A stretch of DNA of 13,902 nucleotides from a virus (lineage: Duplodnaviria > Heunggongvirae > Uroviricota > Caudoviricetes): the IMG/VR virus record IMGVR_UViG_3300029376_000363. One strand, 5' to 3'. This document shows positions 4,834 to 13,902 of the stretch, in pieces. The first letter of the stretch is position 1. Each line of letters starts with the position of its first letter. A program made the translations under genes and the position numbers. Below the pieces are notes generated by a model. That model was not told where the DNA came from. It saw only the letters and a list, made by a program, of their open reading frames with translations, and ran no database searches.

Positions 4834-7590
4834 TCATTCTTCAGATGAGTTGTAATCTCCTGGCTGGTAATTGAGTACATAAACGTTTATTTGTCGTCCC
4901 TGAATACGTGGTGATTTTCTTTGGTATCCACGACCGCTGTTTGGTGGGGTTAGCATCCCGGCTTTTTTCAACACTTCAGCAAACTGTTTTGCGTTGAAAC
5001 CACATGCGATCTCCTTTTCAAATGTGGCCGGGAATGTGTAGAAAATCATTGGGCTTTCGTCATGTTCTCCACGCTGACGGTATCCGGCTAAATCTTTGAT
5101 GGGCAAATCTGCCGGGCTGTATGGAAATGGAGCAAAACGGCTAAGCCCATAGGCATTAAGAAATGCCTCCGTTTGTTCAATAATCTGCTGATGCTCTTTG
5201 TTACCTGTGCCGAACTCGCGCAACCATGCGTTATAGCTGTGCTGTATCGCATCACGGCATGTCTGAGCATCCCAGCCTGTTACAACCTCGCCTAACAACA
5301 ATGCGGCCTCCAGAATGGCAAATCGCGCGGCTACACGGTGAACCTGCTCACCATAATCGGATGGGATCAGGCTTCTCCATCTGCTTTCGCAATCACGAAC
5401 GGTTTTAATAGCCTGTTGCTGGTGGTCTGCCAGCCATTTAATCCACTCACGCCCGGACGCGCCGTGGTGATGCTGGTAAGCGTCTTTCAGTGCGTCTGCG
5501 TGCTGTTTTCCGTTCTGGTAATCGTGAAAGCGTACTGCTTTACTCAACGGAATATTCAGCAGTCGCACCAGTTGCCCGGCTTTGGTTTTTCGCCCGGAAG
5601 TAGCGATAAATGTTTCTAAATCCATTTCTCCGGTGCTGATTGCCACTGTACGCCAGCGTTTTAGATCCCGGTTTCCACCATCTTTAGCGCCTTGCAGTTT
5701 CCCTACACCGTTAAATAACGCATAGGCAGACTGTGAAACACTGACAGGATCAGCGCCCTGACCAACTTCATCAAGCGGCATTAGTCCGTCATTGTGGGCG
5801 GCAGCTTCATTTGCCAGCCCCAGCGCGGTTCCGTACCACGTCAGCCGCAGTAAATCAGGGTTGCCGTATAAGCTGCTCGCCACGTTTGCCGTGGTGGTCT
5901 TACCTGCGCTCGACTGCTCATAGAAATGAATGCCGAACCCGTCAGCGCCAACCAGCCCAATCAATGGCGCTGCCAGTGCTGCGCCGATCCCGGTCATCAT
6001 TGAATAGTTACCAAAGGCCAGACGCGCCACGTTATCACGCCAGCTTTTCGCGCTCCCTGAGACGGTATATCCGGCTGCGGCTGAGCTTCTCCCGCTGAAC
6101 AGCACAGGATTTTCAGGTGTTCCGATGATTTCCCCATCAGGCATGATGTACGCTCCGCATTGCCAGCCAGTAGCATGAGCAACACGCCACAATTCACGAG
6201 AGCCACTGCGTTGTAGCCAGTCTGCCAGTATTGCTCTGAGGCTGCTTTTGGTCGTGACATTTACCCCACCAGCTTTAAGTGTGCGCCATCCTTCACGTTC
6301 ACCAATATCAGCCAGTGGAATGGCAGCGGTTGTCGGCGTTTCAGAACCAAACGACAGCCAGCGAAGAATGAGATACTGGTCTTTATCGTCTCTGCCAGTA
6401 CCGATAACGCTTAACGGAGAACATAACCAGCTTTCGTTATTGATGATTTCTCCACTCTGGCTGTCAGCTCTCGGAGATACCCAATAAATACCATCCTCGC
6501 GGCTTTCTATTCTTGGTTTCAGTGGGTCGGTATCCATAACCTTAAAATCGCTTCCCTCAATGGTCTGTGGCTCCTGTTTCACGCCATTACCCTGTGGTTG
6601 GTACATTGATTTATTGAACGCTTCTGCGGCGCATTTAATGCCGTGTTTTTGGTGGTAATCATTCCAGTCTGCTTTGTGATCTGTCGGGGGTAATGCCACC
6701 CATCCAGAAACAGATAAAGCTGCTTTTTCTGCTGCTATTCTCCCCGTGTTTTGTCTTCCTTCGCTGTGGTCGTTATCCGCAGCAATGATGATTTGTGCTG
6801 AAGGAAATTTATCCCGCAGTACCTGGGCGACATATAACAGGTTCCCGGCATCAATCGCCGCCACTGTCAGCGCCTCTGGACGCATTAAATGGGCAGATAA
6901 TGCCGTTGCCAGCCCTTCTGCGATTAAGATGCTCTGTGTTGTTTCTGGTGCGTTTATGGCGTGATATGCCCCCCGCTTTGCTGAGCCTGTCAGGAGTCTT
7001 TTTTCACCATGTGAGGTAATAGTCTGTGCTGCTGTGACTGCGCCGGATTTATCCACCAGCGCCAGCAACAGAGATCCATCGGGCAACACGGGGAATGTAA
7101 AATCACCTACCCCTTTCGCAACCAGATAATCAGATTTGCCGTTTACAGCCTTTCTGCGCATGTCATCAAACTGACGGGAAAACGTATCCCGTCTTTGTTG
7201 TTCGTCCTTCTCTGCCCTTTTCAGGCGCTCCTGTTCGCGTCGCTGGCGCTCGGTTTCCAGTTGTTCCCGTTTCTGGCTGGTGGCTTCTGGTGTTTCCGTT
7301 GTCCGGTAATCAATACCCAGAACATCAGCGGCAAGCAGCGCCGCCTCTGTTGTGTCGCAGTTATTTACGCGTTTAATTAAATCCAGCCCATCACCAGCGC
7401 CGCACTGATTACAGATGAAGCTACCGCGCCCGTTGTCATCGAACCGGAATCGATCTTTGCCCCCACATGCAGGGCAGGGAGCATGACGGCGCGGAGAGTC
7501 AGGGACATTTATGTTCAGGCAGCCCAGCACATGAGGCCAGTTGTTTTCAGACGCACTGATAACCTGACGGATAAGATCAATGTTTCGCAT
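4834..7590 (-). CDS. Primase-helicase, phage/plasmid P4-family type (Zn-ribbon + Toprim + P-loop NTPase), 918 aa
   Basis: N-terminal CPACGG...CNQCG zinc ribbon; Toprim-like IAEGLATA and AADNDHS motifs; Walker A SSAGKTTT and Walker B-like LMPLDEV. ATG at 7590 (GTG at 7593 also possible) overlaps the upstream gene end. Confidence 0.9.
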   Translation of the reverse strand: MRNIDLIRQVISASENNWPHVLGCLNINVPDSPRRHAPCPACGGKDRFRFDDNGRGSFICNQCGAGDGLDLIKRVNNCDTTEAALLAADVLGIDYRTTETPEATSQKREQLETERQRREQERLKRAEKDEQQRRDTFSRQFDDMRRKAVNGKSDYLVAKGVGDFTFPVLPDGSLLLALVDKSGAVTAAQTITSHGEKRLLTGSAKRGAYHAINAPETTQSILIAEGLATALSAHLMRPEALTVAAIDAGNLLYVAQVLRDKFPSAQIIIAADNDHSEGRQNTGRIAAEKAALSVSGWVALPPTDHKADWNDYHQKHGIKCAAEAFNKSMYQPQGNGVKQEPQTIEGSDFKVMDTDPLKPRIESREDGIYWVSPRADSQSGEIINNESWLCSPLSVIGTGRDDKDQYLILRWLSFGSETPTTAAIPLADIGEREGWRTLKAGGVNVTTKSSLRAILADWLQRSGSRELWRVAHATGWQCGAYIMPDGEIIGTPENPVLFSGRSSAAAGYTVSGSAKSWRDNVARLAFGNYSMMTGIGAALAAPLIGLVGADGFGIHFYEQSSAGKTTTANVASSLYGNPDLLRLTWYGTALGLANEAAAHNDGLMPLDEVGQGADPVSVSQSAYALFNGVGKLQGAKDGGNRDLKRWRTVAISTGEMDLETFIATSGRKTKAGQLVRLLNIPLSKAVRFHDYQNGKQHADALKDAYQHHHGASGREWIKWLADHQQQAIKTVRDCESRWRSLIPSDYGEQVHRVAARFAILEAALLLGEVVTGWDAQTCRDAIQHSYNAWLREFGTGNKEHQQIIEQTEAFLNAYGLSRFAPFPYSPADLPIKDLAGYRQRGEHDESPMIFYTFPATFEKEIACGFNAKQFAEVLKKAGMLTPPNSGRGYQRKSPRIQGRQINVYVLNYQPGDYNSSEE

Positions 7591-7948
7591 CACCGTACCC
7601 CACGTGGTCTATAGCGTTTGCGATATGGCTAACCAGCATCTGCCACTTGGTTATTCCGTAATCAGTCAGCATGCCATCATTGTTTAGCCACATATCAAAT
7701 TCAGCGGTTGTCGCAAGTTTCCACTTATCGCCGTGGACAGTCCTCATTGCTGGGTACATGAATGCGCAAATCAGATCACAAACATCTGACGGCTTCAGAG
7801 ATGTAGTAATGGTGCGTCCCTCTGGCGTCTGAATTGCCATTTTCTCTTCACCAGTAGAATGAAGGTTATGAATCCACACAGCACCAGCAATCTTTGCCAC
7901 CTGCTCTCCGATTGCGGAGCTAAGCGCCATTTCTGCATTTTCACGCAT
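7577..7948 (-). CDS. Hypothetical protein (123 aa)
   Basis: ATG at 7948 with GGGAGG RBS; overlaps the neighbouring gene's stop. Confidence 0.65.
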   Translation of the reverse strand: MRENAEMALSSAIGEQVAKIAGAVWIHNLHSTGEEKMAIQTPEGRTITTSLKPSDVCDLICAFMYPAMRTVHGDKWKLATTAEFDMWLNNDGMLTDYGITKWQMLVSHIANAIDHVGYGDAKH

Positions 7949-11632: not shown

Positions 11633-12064
11633 TTAGGCGGCGTTAAACGCGTCCGGGTAGAGTTTCAGAATGTCGGCAATTTCCTGCTGAGAAAGTCCGT
11701 TGTGATCATTTATGTTCGCAAGATGGTTAATATGAGTGATCACTTTCAGAACATCACCGCGGCAGGAGAAACGGTAGCGAAGGTGTGTTCCGATACCATC
11801 AGGATTCTTTTCGTCGATACGCTCCAGAGTGATTCCAAGCTGGCGTTCTAACTCTGTTGCATAGTTACGACCAGAAGACAGACGGCAGTAGCGAAGAATG
11901 TCATTTTCTGTCCATCCCTCTATACCAGTACGCAGCATATAGACTCTGGCACGATGCTTTTTCGGTGTGCGCTTTGGTGCTTGAAGGGATTTTGTAAGGG
12001 GCGTAACATCAGATACGCGAATATCTGAATTAGCCGCCTGTAATGGGCGGTTTTTCTTTTCCAT
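11633..12064 (-). CDS. Hypothetical protein (143 aa)
   Basis: ATG at 12064 overlapping the AlpA-like stop (ATGA); basic N-terminus; no motif recognised. Confidence 0.7.
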   Translation of the reverse strand: MEKKNRPLQAANSDIRVSDVTPLTKSLQAPKRTPKKHRARVYMLRTGIEGWTENDILRYCRLSSGRNYATELERQLGITLERIDEKNPDGIGTHLRYRFSCRGDVLKVITHINHLANINDHNGLSQQEIADILKLYPDAFNAA

Positions 12065-12267
12065 CAGGCCACCTTCCCGCGGCGTTCTGCCAGCCAGTTG
12101 TGAATCTCAACCGCATCAAACGCAGTTATTTTTTCTCCCAGCTTTACCGGACGTGGTAGTGAACCGTTTCTTACTTTACGGTCGATGGTGGATACACTAA
12201 CGCCCAGCAATTCAGCCAGGCGAAAGCGTCTGATATAGCCTTTTGTAGGAATCGTGTCGGTGTTCAT
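12064..12267 (-). CDS. alpA: AlpA-family phage transcriptional regulator / excisionase-like HTH protein (67 aa)
   Basis: LAELLGVSVSTIDRKVRNGSLPRPVKLGEKITAFDAVEIHNWL matches the AlpA-type HTH pattern (recalled); typical position near a P4-type integrase. Confidence 0.8.
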   Translation of the reverse strand: MNTDTIPTKGYIRRFRLAELLGVSVSTIDRKVRNGSLPRPVKLGEKITAFDAVEIHNWLAERRGKVA

Positions 12268-12271
12268 GCTT

Positions 12272-12386
12272 CCCGTAACCTCTTAGCGATAGTTGTTGCT
12301 TCGTTACGGGTATTTAATGGTGTGCATGCTCAAAAGTGAATTACAGTAAATTTTATTGTCACGATACTAAATTTTATTATCATGAT
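12272..12386. promoter_or_regulatory. Repeat-rich control region upstream of the AlpA-like gene
   Basis: Inverted repeat CCCGTAAC (12272-12279) / GTTACGGG (12303-12310). Two 18-bp direct repeats AAATTTTATTGTCACGAT (12348-12365) and AAATTTTATTATCATGAT (12369-12386) with 21-bp phasing; the second overlaps the stop codon of the cargo gene. Confidence 0.35.
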
Positions 12387-13225
12387 TTCTTCTTTCCTGC
12401 CGTGGTACGTTTTTCCGGCAATCTGTCCATGTCAGATATGATCTTCTTTAAATAATCTGTAGATGGTTCATCATAATCGCCACCCACATGTGGCCAGTGG
12501 TCTATCGTAGCGTTTGCCCACGCTTCGTTGGTTTCTTTCCCGTTTTTCCCTTTGCACTCTTCCGGATAGTGCCGTTTCACATAAATCAACGCCATAATGC
12601 TATTCTCACGGTTCAGGCTATGTCGTGCTCTATTTCCATGCTCTATGTTTTTAAATTCCTTTTCATAAAGATCGTGTGAACCCAAATGGAGTATGCTGGG
12701 TATTGGCTGATTTTTATCCATGCTTTCAGCTATATATTCAACCCACGGTCTTGATATATACAAATCTTCCACAGACGATACGGTGGTATCATGTTCGCGA
12801 AAATCGTAGAAAAAGTAACGTCCTGATGTGATATCTAGTTCTTTTTTTATATATGCTGGTGAGAATATGAGTGGAATGTCAGGGGCTCTCTTAACCCCTG
12901 CAAGGGAAGCAATGAAATCACTAGGAACGTGCCATAATCCACTTGCTAAGCACTTCATACCATCGAAAATACCTTCATTTAGATATCTTTCGGTATCTTC
13001 TCTAGTAGAAATAATAGAACCAAATAATAAGTTTTCTATGTCTTTGCTGCCGTGGTCTGGTGGCAAGTTTCCCGCTTGATAGAGTACGCCTTCATACTGG
13101 CGAATTATTGTGCTCAAAAATATAGAGCCTGATACTCCCATAAGTAGAAGATCATCGACTTCTATTTCTAATAAATTTGCTGCTCTATTAAGTCGGAAAA
13201 AGAGATTTGGTGGTAGTTTTTTCAT
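12380..13225 (-). CDS. Hypothetical cargo protein (281 aa), AT-rich, no recognisable domain
   Basis: ATG at 13225 with AAAGGTGA RBS. About 34-40% GC against about 50% in flanking genes; uses rare codons (ATA, AGA, CTA). Sits between integrase and the AlpA-like gene. Confidence 0.7.
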   Translation of the reverse strand: MKKLPPNLFFRLNRAANLLEIEVDDLLLMGVSGSIFLSTIIRQYEGVLYQAGNLPPDHGSKDIENLLFGSIISTREDTERYLNEGIFDGMKCLASGLWHVPSDFIASLAGVKRAPDIPLIFSPAYIKKELDITSGRYFFYDFREHDTTVSSVEDLYISRPWVEYIAESMDKNQPIPSILHLGSHDLYEKEFKNIEHGNRARHSLNRENSIMALIYVKRHYPEECKGKNGKETNEAWANATIDHWPHVGGDYDEPSTDYLKKIISDMDRLPEKRTTAGKKKS

Positions 13226-13257
13226 TGCGTCACCTTTTACGCTGCGCCTTATTTTGT

Positions 13258-13313
13258 GATTGAGCCAGGCGGTAAGGCTTCCCGCTTTTCGCCCCGTCGA
13301 GCTAGGCTCAATC
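13258..13313. promoter_or_regulatory. 9-bp inverted repeat between the integrase 3' end and the cargo gene start
   Basis: GATTGAGCC (13258-13266) and GGCTCAATC (13305-13313), perfect, 38 bp apart. Confidence 0.3.
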
Positions 13314-13320
13314 TATTCAG

Positions 13321-13902
13321 TTAGTTCGCCCTTCTGAGAGGCGTTACGTTGTGGTCTTTTCCGCTTTCCAGTGCCACCAGCAGATCAGCCCACTGTGCCA
13401 GTGCTGCTTTACGCTCATCAAAATACTGATGGCGGTTATAAATCCCCTCTACGCCCTTAATGCGATGATTGAGGCATCGTTCCGCCACGACAGGATCAAC
13501 ACCCAACGCTGCTAAATGAGTACGTGCGGTGCGTCGGAAGTCGTGAATCGTGAAATTAGGCACATCCGGCATTTCGGCGCGAACCTTAGCCAGTGCTACG
13601 GGCAAAGTGCTTTCCTGAATATGTGGGATCATTCTGTTTTGCATCTTCCTGGCTGGAAGCACCCATGCGCTATTACATGAAAAGGTGTGTAGCTCTCTCA
13701 ACCATTCAACGGCTGGGGAAGGTAGAGGTATATCAATAGGGTCTCCGTTTTTGCTGCGTTCTTCCGGCAAATGCCATACCGCACCATCTAAATCAAACTC
13801 TTCCCATCGTGCGGCGCATAACTCCATCTTACGAACGCATAGTGCCAGCAATAGCTTAAATGTCAGTTCGTTCTGGCGGCTGAATCCTTTTGCGGTGCGC
13901 AT
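13321..13902 (-). CDS. int: Tyrosine recombinase / P4-type integrase, C-terminal catalytic region (partial; N-terminus beyond the window end)
   Basis: HDFRRTARTHLAALGVDPVVAERCLNH...GVEGIYNRHQYFDERK is the conserved C-terminal catalytic region of P4-family integrases, including the tyrosine-bearing segment. Stop TAA at 13321-13323. Confidence 0.9.
   Translation of the reverse strand: MRTAKGFSRQNELTFKLLLALCVRKMELCAARWEEFDLDGAVWHLPEERSKNGDPIDIPLPSPAVEWLRELHTFSCNSAWVLPARKMQNRMIPHIQESTLPVALAKVRAEMPDVPNFTIHDFRRTARTHLAALGVDPVVAERCLNHRIKGVEGIYNRHQYFDERKAALAQWADLLVALESGKDHNVTPLRRAN

What the first reader, a model, noticed from the sequence alone, without database searches (positions are those of the whole stretch)
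12380..13225. AT-rich orphan cargo gene between integrase and the AlpA-like gene: candidate single-gene defense or abortive-infection factor
The 281-aa protein has no motif I can recognise. Its GC is about 10-15 points below its neighbours, with rare codons, indicating recent acquisition. It sits in the variable slot next to the integrase, where P4-like and PICI-like satellites are known to carry anti-phage systems.
Basis: partly seen in the sequence, partly recalled or inferred. Interest (0 to 1): 0.7.

Follow-up and report, generated by a model that had tools for sequence, protein, structure and literature searches.

The report
Integrase-to-alpA slot gene of phage satellite
The "orphan" gene is real and AT-rich, but it belongs to a widespread unnamed protein family that always sits between the integrase and the AlpA switch gene of phage-satellite islands, so it more likely helps control the island's excision or induction than defends against phages.

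Summary
ORF 12380-13225 (- strand, 281 aa) lies between a P4-type integrase and alpA. Its GC is 39.8% against 47-51% for neighbours, and no Pfam, NCBIfam, PHROG or PADLOC model matches it.

It is not an orphan. A profile search finds 175 representative clusters (50% identity), all unannotated. In 23 of 24 fetched loci that extend past the gene (Enterobacterales, Aeromonadales, Rheinheimera, Laribacter, Chitinivorax), plus two Klebsiella "plasmid" records, the gene lies directly upstream of alpA, usually 64-137 bp away. This holds even where 4 kb of cargo separates it from int.

The protein has an AlpA/MerR-like winged-helix N-terminus, a hypervariable middle and a conserved C-terminal helical module. 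In E. coli the ORF plus the alpA upstream spacer swaps as a sharply bounded cassette. A second, unrelated family occupying the slot is equally position-locked.

The closest known analogue is the PICMI int-overlapping/contiguous gene (IOLG/ICG), reported as needed for satellite excision. My best reading is a DNA-binding accessory or regulatory factor of the Int/AlpA switch (confidence 0.45). Single-gene defence remains a rival (0.22). None of 92 members matches PADLOC, and the window's best defence candidate (PDC-M13-like) is at the other end, 242-1288.

The parts
12380..13225 (-). Slot gene 'X', 281 aa (RefSeq WP_000735991.1, 'hypothetical protein'); member of an unannotated family placed between int and alpA
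   Evidence: ORF and translation; E. coli 042 annotation; 175 family representatives; synteny census
13082..13225 (-). N-terminal module (aa 1-48): predicted AlpA/MerR/excisionase-like winged helix-turn-helix, the most conserved part of the family
12644..13081 (-). Hypervariable central region (aa 49-194), interrupted by two conserved anchors: GLW (aa 95-97) and DLYIsR..I (aa 153-164)
   Evidence: Per-column information 0.4-0.7 bits against 2-4 in the end modules; low model confidence at 50-90; dN/dS about 1.2 against the L005 allele, from only 11 substitutions
12380..12643 (-). C-terminal conserved helical module (aa 195-281): H195, R205, E206, C223 and W235 nearly invariant; no known fold or family
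   Evidence: pLDDT 94-98; conservation; hhalign to the 321-aa and 316-aa slot alleles, 97% and 95% probability; dN/dS 0.12
12311..13220 (.). Exchangeable cassette: the ORF from its start codon, plus about 70 bp downstream of its stop
   Evidence: blastn breakpoints against islands with 99% identical flanks; 98-99% identity of ORF plus spacer within an 78-84% identical backbone
12347..12378 (-). Allele-specific direct repeat AATAAAATTTA x2, 21 bp apart, immediately after the stop codon; candidate binding site
   Evidence: p about 0.003 against shuffles; direct repeats with a 20-22 bp period at the same place in L008, L010, L017 and L027
12272..12310 (-). Conserved inverted repeat CCCGTAAC-N23-GTTACGGG in the alpA leader; as RNA, a hairpin whose 3' arm overlaps the alpA Shine-Dalgarno
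   Evidence: -13.6 kcal/mol, z -3.17; comparable hairpins of different sequence in 9 of 12 other loci
12064..12267 (-). alpA (67 aa), the satellite's master activator/excisionase-type gene; the slot gene's constant downstream neighbour
   Evidence: Phage_AlpA E 2.2e-8; role of AlpA in PICIs from PMC6092414 and PMC11773190
13321..13902 (-). 3' part of the P4-type tyrosine integrase (runs off the window); full gene is 419 aa, next to yicC in E. coli 042
13226..13320 (-). int-to-X spacer carrying the ribosome-binding site; shared with some other alleles (L002, L006) but part of the swapped segment in others (L003, L004)

Best explanation
The gene is the local representative of a large, unnamed, fast-diverging family that fills a fixed position between the P4-type integrase and alpA in AlpA-controlled phage satellites. 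These include EcCIMP1-like PICIs and PICMI-like islands.

The protein has three parts: a conserved N-terminal AlpA/MerR/excisionase-type winged helix, a hypervariable middle, and a conserved C-terminal helical module.

I propose it is a DNA-binding accessory or regulatory component of the island's excision/induction switch. In this model it is made with or just after Int in the quiescent island. It acts with Int and AlpA, at the recombination complex and/or at the alpA control region that travels with it in the cassette. The variable middle would set specificity, either for a helper-phage cue or for island type.

Shown here: the architecture, the family, the position lock, and the cassette exchange including the alpA upstream spacer. 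Inferred: DNA binding, the role in excision or induction, and the meaning of the variable region.
For: (1) Position lock. In 23 of 24 family-bearing loci with flanking sequence, across two proteobacterial classes, the order is int, gene, alpA on one strand. Two Klebsiella 'plasmid' copies show the same order.
(2) Linkage is to alpA. The spacer to alpA is 64-137 bp in 23 of 25 loci, while the distance from int ranges from -4 to 4187 bp. In L015, 4 kb of other cargo lies between int and the gene.
(3) Coupling to int. Some members overlap int by ATGA or lie 3-13 bp after it (L014, L016, L010, L038, L007).
(5) The mobile unit is the ORF plus the alpA upstream spacer. That spacer carries allele-specific paired repeats: 13 of 21 loci at p < 0.05, five of them direct repeats with a period of two helical turns.
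(6) An unrelated family in the same slot (L006 type) is equally position-locked in Yersinia, Providencia and Neptunomonas. So the slot is a functional position filled by analogues.
(7) Precedent. In PICMI115 the gene in this slot (iolg) is reported as necessary for helper-induced excision and transfer, and 13 unrelated IOLG/ICG families fill the slot (PMC10803314). L018, a fis-integrated PICMI-like element, carries a member of the present family there.
(8) There are no relatives in 50,697 phage records, and no PADLOC match in 92 members.
Against: No experiment exists on this family. Homology to PICMI115 IOLG could not be tested because its sequence was not obtainable. In that study the iolg deletion was complemented only with int and iolg together, so a polar effect is not excluded.

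EcCIMP1, which has nearly the same backbone but another integrase type, is mobile without a family member (PMC11773190). The family is therefore not universally required.

Alleles are swapped between identical int/alpA backgrounds. That argues against tight co-evolution of the variable part with Int or AlpA.

Confidence: 0.45

Rival explanations
1. Single-gene anti-phage defence or abortive-infection factor carried in the PICI 5' accessory hotspot. The variable middle would sense a phage component and the conserved C-terminal module would act as effector.
For: Low GC and rare codons. Sharp cassette exchange, with unrelated genes in the same slot. A hypervariable central region. PICIs are reported to carry immune systems at their 5' or 3' ends (PMC11364771). 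EcCIMP1-type islands give unexplained superinfection immunity with no known system detected (PMC11773190). Near-invariant H195, R205, E206 and C223 in the C-terminal module could form an active site.
Against: None of 92 members hits PADLOC beyond chance. The family is never found outside the int-alpA position or in phages, unlike typical defence genes. It stays beside alpA when other cargo is inserted. The slot always holds one gene of about 216-321 aa in the sampled E. coli islands, never a multi-gene system. EcCIMP1 itself lacks the family. The window's PADLOC-detectable candidate (PDC-M13-like) is at the other end of the window. No effector-like fold was found.
Confidence: 0.22
2. Master repressor and helper sensor of the island, analogous to SaPI Stl. 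The wHTH would bind operators in the cassette-borne alpA upstream region and keep alpA off. A helper-phage protein binding the variable domain would lift repression. Cassettes would then define induction-specificity types, like phage immunity regions. This is a sharper version of the best explanation and is scored separately.
For: [quoted passage not shown]' (PMC10803314). The ORF and the alpA upstream spacer move together. The spacer carries allele-specific paired repeats, as direct repeats 20-22 bp apart or as palindromes without T-runs. The architecture is HTH plus variable domain, as in Stl.
Against: The gene is co-directional with alpA, not divergent as stl is. The wHTH is the most conserved part while the putative operators differ completely between alleles. 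Alleles L002 and L003 have terminator-like hairpins instead of operator-like repeats. Islands lacking the family (EcCIMP1) still show helper-dependent alpA induction (PMC11773190).
Confidence: 0.15
3. Accessory cargo with a host-directed or inter-element function unrelated to the island's life cycle or to phage defence, for example a regulator of host genes or an exclusion factor against competing islands at the same att site.
For: These islands carry host-directed regulators such as PerC, which represses LEE in the EcCIMP1 study (PMC11773190). A DNA-binding domain is present. The gene is not universally present.
Against: The strict position lock and the constant spacing to alpA across classes, seen for two unrelated families, are hard to explain for a host-directed function.
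Confidence: 0.08

Closest known systems
PICMI IOLG/ICG (integrase-overlapping or integrase-contiguous gene) of Vibrionaceae phage-inducible chromosomal minimalist islands (PMC10803314)
   Same: It occupies the same slot on the same strand, between a P4-type integrase and alpA, in an int-alpA-primase satellite. Function is unknown and diversity is extreme (13 families in PICMIs; at least 3 unrelated occupants here). Some members of the present family overlap int by ATGA (L014). One member sits in a fis-integrated PICMI-like element (L018).
   Different: In this window the gene lies 95 bp after int, making it the 'contiguous' type. The host element is a 20-kb EcCIMP1-like PICI at yicC with a temperate P22-like helper type, not a 6-kb PICMI of virulent phages. 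The wHTH, hypervariable and C-module architecture and the cassette exchange were not described for IOLG.
AlpA / Xis / TorI / Vis family of small winged-helix excisionase-regulators (Pfam PF05930, PF12728)
   Different: No Pfam match at any useful threshold. The protein is four times longer, with a hypervariable insert and a conserved C-terminal module absent from AlpA and Xis.
SaPI Stl / Gram-positive PICI Rpr master repressors
   Same: An HTH N-terminus plus a highly divergent remainder; located next to int; a possible determinant of helper specificity.
   Different: Stl is transcribed divergently from the genes it represses, whereas this gene is co-directional with alpA. There is no sequence or fold relationship. 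No repressor function has been shown in any Gram-negative PICI.
PICI and P4 anti-phage hotspots (Fillol-Salom 2022, cited in PMC11364771; Rousset 2022, PMC9122126)
   Same: A variable locus with conserved flanks next to the integrase of a satellite; low-GC single genes of unknown function.
   Different: Known hotspots hold many different known systems of very different sizes, and the same systems also occur elsewhere in genomes. This slot holds one gene of 216-321 aa in the sampled islands. Its two examined families are found only here, and none matches PADLOC.
EcCIMP1 (E. coli PICI mobilised by the P22-like phage Kapi1; PMC11773190)
   Same: The window's island shares the backbone: alpA, a 143-aa gene, antA, DUF4222, ash, a TOPRIM/DUF927 primase, DUF2824 and P22-like DNA-transfer genes, plus PerC in the 042 copy.
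   Different: EcCIMP1 uses another integrase and another site (tRNA-Thr). Its slot gene, EcCIMP1_002, is described as about 10% the size of UvrB, and no family member is annotated there.

Membership tests
Gram-negative PICI (AlpA type), EcCIMP1-like - applies to the island that carries the gene | Integrase at one end, with alpA downstream in the same orientation | tested here: met
   int 13321-13902 and alpA 12064-12267, both on the - strand; same order in E. coli 042
Gram-negative PICI (AlpA type), EcCIMP1-like - applies to the island that carries the gene | Primase/replication module, and no complete phage structural or lysis module | tested here: met
   TOPRIM + DUF927 primase at 4834-7593. 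The only phage-like genes are DUF2824 and P22-like ejection homologues, as in EcCIMP1 (PMC11773190)
Gram-negative PICI (AlpA type), EcCIMP1-like - applies to the island that carries the gene | Helper-phage-dependent excision, replication and packaging | not testable with these tools
   Needs experiments. A 22.9-kb circular Klebsiella record of the same island type is compatible with excision but does not prove it
PICMI IOLG/ICG class | Gene between int and alpA on the same strand, overlapping or contiguous with int | tested here: met
   95-bp gap in the window; -4 to 25 bp in L014, L016, L010, L038, L007, L013, L009, L003 and L018
PICMI IOLG/ICG class | Sequence membership in one of the 13 described IOLG/ICG families | not testable with these tools
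   IOLG sequences are not in the held supplements. Fishing with PICMI115 AlpA returned no usable PICMI locus
PICMI IOLG/ICG class | Required for helper-induced excision | not testable with these tools
   Experimental; reported only for PICMI115 (PMC10803314)
Known or candidate anti-phage defence systems (PADLOC-DB 2.0) | Significant match to a defence-protein HMM | tested here: not met
   No hit for the window protein at E <= 0.1. Among 92 family members there are only three isolated hits at E 0.004-0.008, which is chance level
AlpA/excisionase/MerR-type winged helix (PF05930, PF12728) | Pfam match above the gathering threshold | tested here: not met
   No hit for the window protein. One of 92 members hits HTH_17 at E 0.005
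AlpA/excisionase/MerR-type winged helix (PF05930, PF12728) | Fold and profile similarity of the N-terminal 45 or so residues | tested here: inconclusive
SaPI Stl-like master repressor | Divergent transcription from the operon it represses | tested here: not met
   The gene is co-directional with int and alpA in all loci
SaPI Stl-like master repressor | Repressor inactivated by binding a helper-phage protein | not testable with these tools
   Needs reporter and interaction experiments

The most novel reading that the evidence does not exclude
The family is the missing helper-sensing regulator of AlpA-type satellites in Gram-negative bacteria. A constitutively made winged-helix protein would bind the cassette-borne control region upstream of alpA, or the excision complex. 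Its hypervariable domain would recognise a helper-phage protein. The exchangeable cassettes (gene plus operator) would then define induction-specificity types, in the way immunity regions do in lambdoid phages and Stl does in SaPIs.
Probability: 0.15. Interest if true: 0.8.

Novelty: new variant of a known kind. Interest (0 to 1): 0.5.

Why it matters
Two papers on Gram-negative satellites leave the same question open. It is unclear whether a repressor exists, and unclear how the helper phage switches on alpA and how Int, AlpA and the int-adjacent gene cooperate in excision (PMC6092414, PMC10803314).

This analysis shows that the int-adjacent gene of an E. coli PICI belongs to a family found in Gamma- and Betaproteobacteria. 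The family has a defined three-part architecture, a constant position 64-137 bp upstream of alpA, and cassette-like exchange together with the alpA upstream DNA.

That gives a concrete, genetically tractable candidate in E. coli 042 and related strains for the switch component. It also cautions against calling every low-GC unknown gene next to a satellite integrase a defence gene. If the gene does turn out to be a defence gene, it would be a new single-gene family specific to satellites.

Tried and rejected
- Pfam, NCBIfam, PHROGs and PADLOC on the protein, and Pfam and PADLOC on all 92 aligned members: nothing usable.
- PDB sequence searches with the single protein and with the profile: only chance hits.
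- First AF2 model from 8 sequences was poor (pLDDT 63). The 92-sequence model reached 82.
- Foldseek against PDB and BFVD: no hit at E <= 0.001. afdb50 was unavailable.
- Word-indexed homologue searches recovered only 9 clusters and gave a misleading impression of an orphan. The exhaustive profile search corrected that.
- The first genome-contig scan, with a mixed alignment, confirmed nothing.
- I could not obtain PICMI115 IOLG. It is not in the supplements, and AlpA-based fishing in the viral and metagenome collections gave no PICMI-like int-gene-alpA locus.
- The Cell 2022 paper on PICI immune systems is not held, so I could not check which 5' genes it tested.
- An alignment-based covariation test of the alpA leader hairpin failed because the leaders are not alignable across taxa.
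- The 293-aa and 216-aa slot occupants are not detectable relatives of the family.
- The weak PDC-S31 hit of the 321-aa allele (E 0.002) was rejected as chance.
- The conserved Cys/His positions in the N-terminal module of most members were considered as a metal site and rejected, because the window's subfamily has F, I and L there.

Full report
**1. The observation**

The window holds an ATG-initiated ORF of 281 aa at 12380-13225 on the - strand, with a good ribosome-binding site. Upstream on the same strand is the 3' part of a tyrosine integrase (13321-13902). Downstream is a 67-aa AlpA-family gene (12064-12267). The ORF's GC is 39.8% (GC3 35%), against 47-51% for ten neighbouring genes. Six rare E. 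coli codons make up 9.6% of its codons, against 1.8-6.7% in the neighbours. No Pfam, PADLOC, PHROG, NCBIfam or PDB sequence match exists. The description is therefore correct, with the GC gap closer to 10 points than 15.

**2. The element**

The window is part of an E. coli chromosomal island inserted next to yicC (E. coli 042). The gene order is:
- int, the slot gene (WP_000735991.1), alpA, a 143-aa gene, antA, DUF4222 and ash;
- several small genes, then a TOPRIM/DUF927 primase;
- DUF2824 and genes resembling the P22 ejection proteins, with PerC further on in strain 042.

This is the backbone of EcCIMP1, a PICI shown to be induced and transferred by the P22-like phage Kapi1 (PMC11773190). 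EcCIMP1 itself sits at tRNA-Thr, has another integrase type, and has only a very small gene in the slot.

**3. Not an orphan**

The word-indexed search found 9 clusters. An exhaustive profile search of 1.84 billion representatives found 175 at E <= 1e-3 and 54 at E <= 1e-10, almost all 260-380 aa. Every named member is annotated 'hypothetical protein', from Leclercia, Enterobacter, Pectobacterium, Salmonella, Klebsiella and Laribacter.

Conservation along a 92-member alignment defines the architecture:
- a conserved N-terminal module (aa 1-36);
- two anchors, GLW (95-97) and DLYIsR..I (153-164);
- a conserved C-terminal module (195-240 and beyond), with near-invariant H195, R205, E206, C223 and W235;
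- hypervariable stretches at 41-90, 100-150 and 170-193.

**4. Position lock**

I annotated all fetched loci with HMMs for the family, AlpA and the integrase, and used precomputed Pfam calls. Of 26 loci that carry a family member, 24 extend past the gene. In 23 of those 24 the order is P4-type integrase, family gene, alpA on one strand. The loci come from E. coli, Leclercia, Aeromonas species, Zobellella, Tolumonas (where alpA was not detected), Rheinheimera, Laribacter and Chitinivorax. Three Klebsiella 'plasmid' records match the family; the two I examined show the same order, and one of them is a 22.9-kb circular copy of the island type.

The distance from the gene's stop to the alpA start is 64-137 bp in 23 of 25 loci. 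The distance from int ranges from a 4-nt overlap to 4187 bp. In L015 the extra 4 kb holds a Q-like gene, a TumE/HVO_A0114 pair and an HTH_3 gene, yet the family gene still abuts alpA. No relative exists in 50,697 phage records.

**5. Cassette behaviour in E. coli**

Only 37-38 of 5426 complete genomes carry this allele, while several hundred share the flanks. Islands with 99% identical int and alpA carry other genes of 321, 316, 293 or 216 aa in the slot.
- The first two are true homologues through the C-terminal module (hhalign 97% and 95%).
- The last two are not detectable relatives.

Breakpoints are sharp. Against L002, identity stops at 12310 and resumes at 13221, which is the ORF's start codon. 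Conversely, strain CT29 (L005) has the same allele at 98.0% identity and the ORF-to-alpA spacer at 99.1%. Its int, alpA and next gene are only 82.5%, 84.3% and 77.5% identical. The mobile unit is therefore the ORF plus the alpA upstream region.

The first 50 nt or so after the stop codon carries a paired element in 13 of 21 distinct loci at p < 0.05 against shuffles. In five loci, including the window (AATAAAATTTA x2, p about 0.003), it is a direct repeat with a 20-22 bp period. Some of the inverted repeats are ordinary terminators (L002, L003, L014).

**6. A second family behaves the same way**

The 293-aa occupant of the slot (L006) defines its own family of 54 clusters, in Enterobacterales and Neptunomonas. 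Three distant members, from Yersinia at yicC, Providencia at another site and Neptunomonas, are again flanked by a P4-type integrase and a small AlpA-like gene, with an 88-106 bp spacer. The slot is thus a functional position filled by unrelated but analogous proteins.

**7. What is known**

In Vibrio PICMIs the same slot holds an 'integrase-overlapping gene' (iolg) or a contiguous gene (icg), in 13 unrelated families of unknown function. In PICMI115, deleting iolg abolished helper-induced excision, packaging and transfer. The authors propose that Int and IOLG are constitutive, that AlpA is phage-induced, and that the three form the excision complex (PMC10803314). Complementation was done with int and iolg together, so polarity is not excluded.

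One of my loci, L018 from Zobellella, has the fis 3'-end att repeat of PICMI-like elements 100 bp upstream of its integrase, and carries a member of the present family in the slot. L014's member overlaps int by ATGA. I could not obtain an IOLG sequence, so homology is untested.

**8. Weighing the readings**

Favouring a factor of the Int/AlpA switch:
- the position lock of two unrelated families over large evolutionary distances;
- the constant spacing to alpA;
- occasional translational coupling to int;
- the excisionase-like wHTH;
- co-transfer with the alpA control region;
- absence from phages and from other genomic contexts;
- the PICMI precedent.

Equally expected of a defence gene, and fitting the hotspot literature: low GC, turnover and the hypervariable middle. 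However, none of 92 members matches PADLOC beyond chance, and the slot never holds a multi-gene system in the sampled islands.

Arguments against a strictly essential core role: EcCIMP1 works without the family, and alleles swap between identical int/alpA backgrounds.

I put 0.45 on an accessory or regulatory DNA-binding component of the excision/induction switch. Within that idea, the sharper Stl-like repressor model gets a separate 0.15. Single-gene defence gets 0.22 and other cargo functions 0.08.

**9. Verdict**

'Variable slot, recently exchanged' is supported, while 'orphan' and 'defence' are not. The gene is a member of an undescribed family within a barely characterised positional class (IOLG/ICG). 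Interest is moderate (0.5). The finding does not reveal a new mechanism, but it supplies a tractable E. coli candidate for an explicitly open question in satellite biology.

Noticed in passing
window 242-1288 (+): ORFs 242-487, 484-1065, 1037-1288: Three overlapping genes (DUF3791, DUF3990 and a small third ORF) in low-GC DNA (about 43%). They match the PADLOC phage-defence candidate system PDC-M13 (E 2e-10, 7e-30, 8e-11). This is the window's best predicted defence cargo, and it lies at the opposite end from the integrase.
   Followed up: partly
window 12272-12310 (- strand), just upstream of the alpA start at 12267: Inverted repeat CCCGTAAC-N23-GTTACGGG. As RNA it forms a -13.6 kcal/mol hairpin (z -3.2) whose 3' arm overlaps the alpA Shine-Dalgarno. 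Hairpins of different sequence occupy the same place in 9 of 12 other loci from several genera. It may occlude the alpA RBS or serve as a palindromic operator.
   Followed up: partly
window 1-2359 and ORF 2112-2939 (-): The P22 gp20-like ejection-protein gene is truncated (275 aa against 473 aa in E. coli 042). Homology to every complete E. coli genome in the collection starts only at 2360, so the DNA to the left, including the PDC-M13-like genes, is joined to the island at a junction not seen in that set.
   Followed up: partly
window 2112-4071 (-): A satellite with no capsid or lysis genes carries homologues of P22-like head and ejection proteins: DUF2824/phrog_651, phrog_598 'DNA ejection' and phrog_917. 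The same was noted for EcCIMP1 and its P22-like helper Kapi1. Their role in the satellite is unknown.
   Followed up: no
window 13259-13312 (- strand), int-to-X spacer: 8-bp inverted repeat ATTGAGCC...GGCTCAAT flanking a GC-rich stretch directly after the integrase stop codon, with no T-run. Its function is unknown.
   Followed up: no
L038 (NZ_CP033626.1, K. pneumoniae, 22,859 bp circular 'plasmid'): This record is annotated as a non-mobilizable plasmid, but it has the island's gene order (int, family gene, alpA, 143-aa gene, antA, DUF4222, Icd). It may be an excised, circular satellite captured in assembly.
   Followed up: partly
L021 4968-5784; L037 2358-3968: The family gene in the Chitinivorax MAG is split into two overlapping ORFs, so it is frameshifted or contains an assembly error. 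In E. coli ECONIH4 an ISSpu7 element is inserted between the 321-aa allele and alpA, separating the gene from the alpA control region.
   Followed up: no
L006 2256-3137 (-) and loci L041-L043: A second unannotated family (291-331 aa, 54 clusters, Enterobacterales and Neptunomonas) occupies the same int-alpA slot and is equally position-locked. Its N-terminus shows a faintly similar HTH-like motif, but no significant similarity to the family studied here.
   Followed up: partly
window 11633-12064 (-): The 143-aa gene directly after alpA overlaps the alpA stop and is labelled 'PM1773 family protein' in some RefSeq records. It is conserved across EcCIMP1-like, yicC-type and Klebsiella islands and has no Pfam domain, so it is another uncharacterised core gene of the module.
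   Followed up: no
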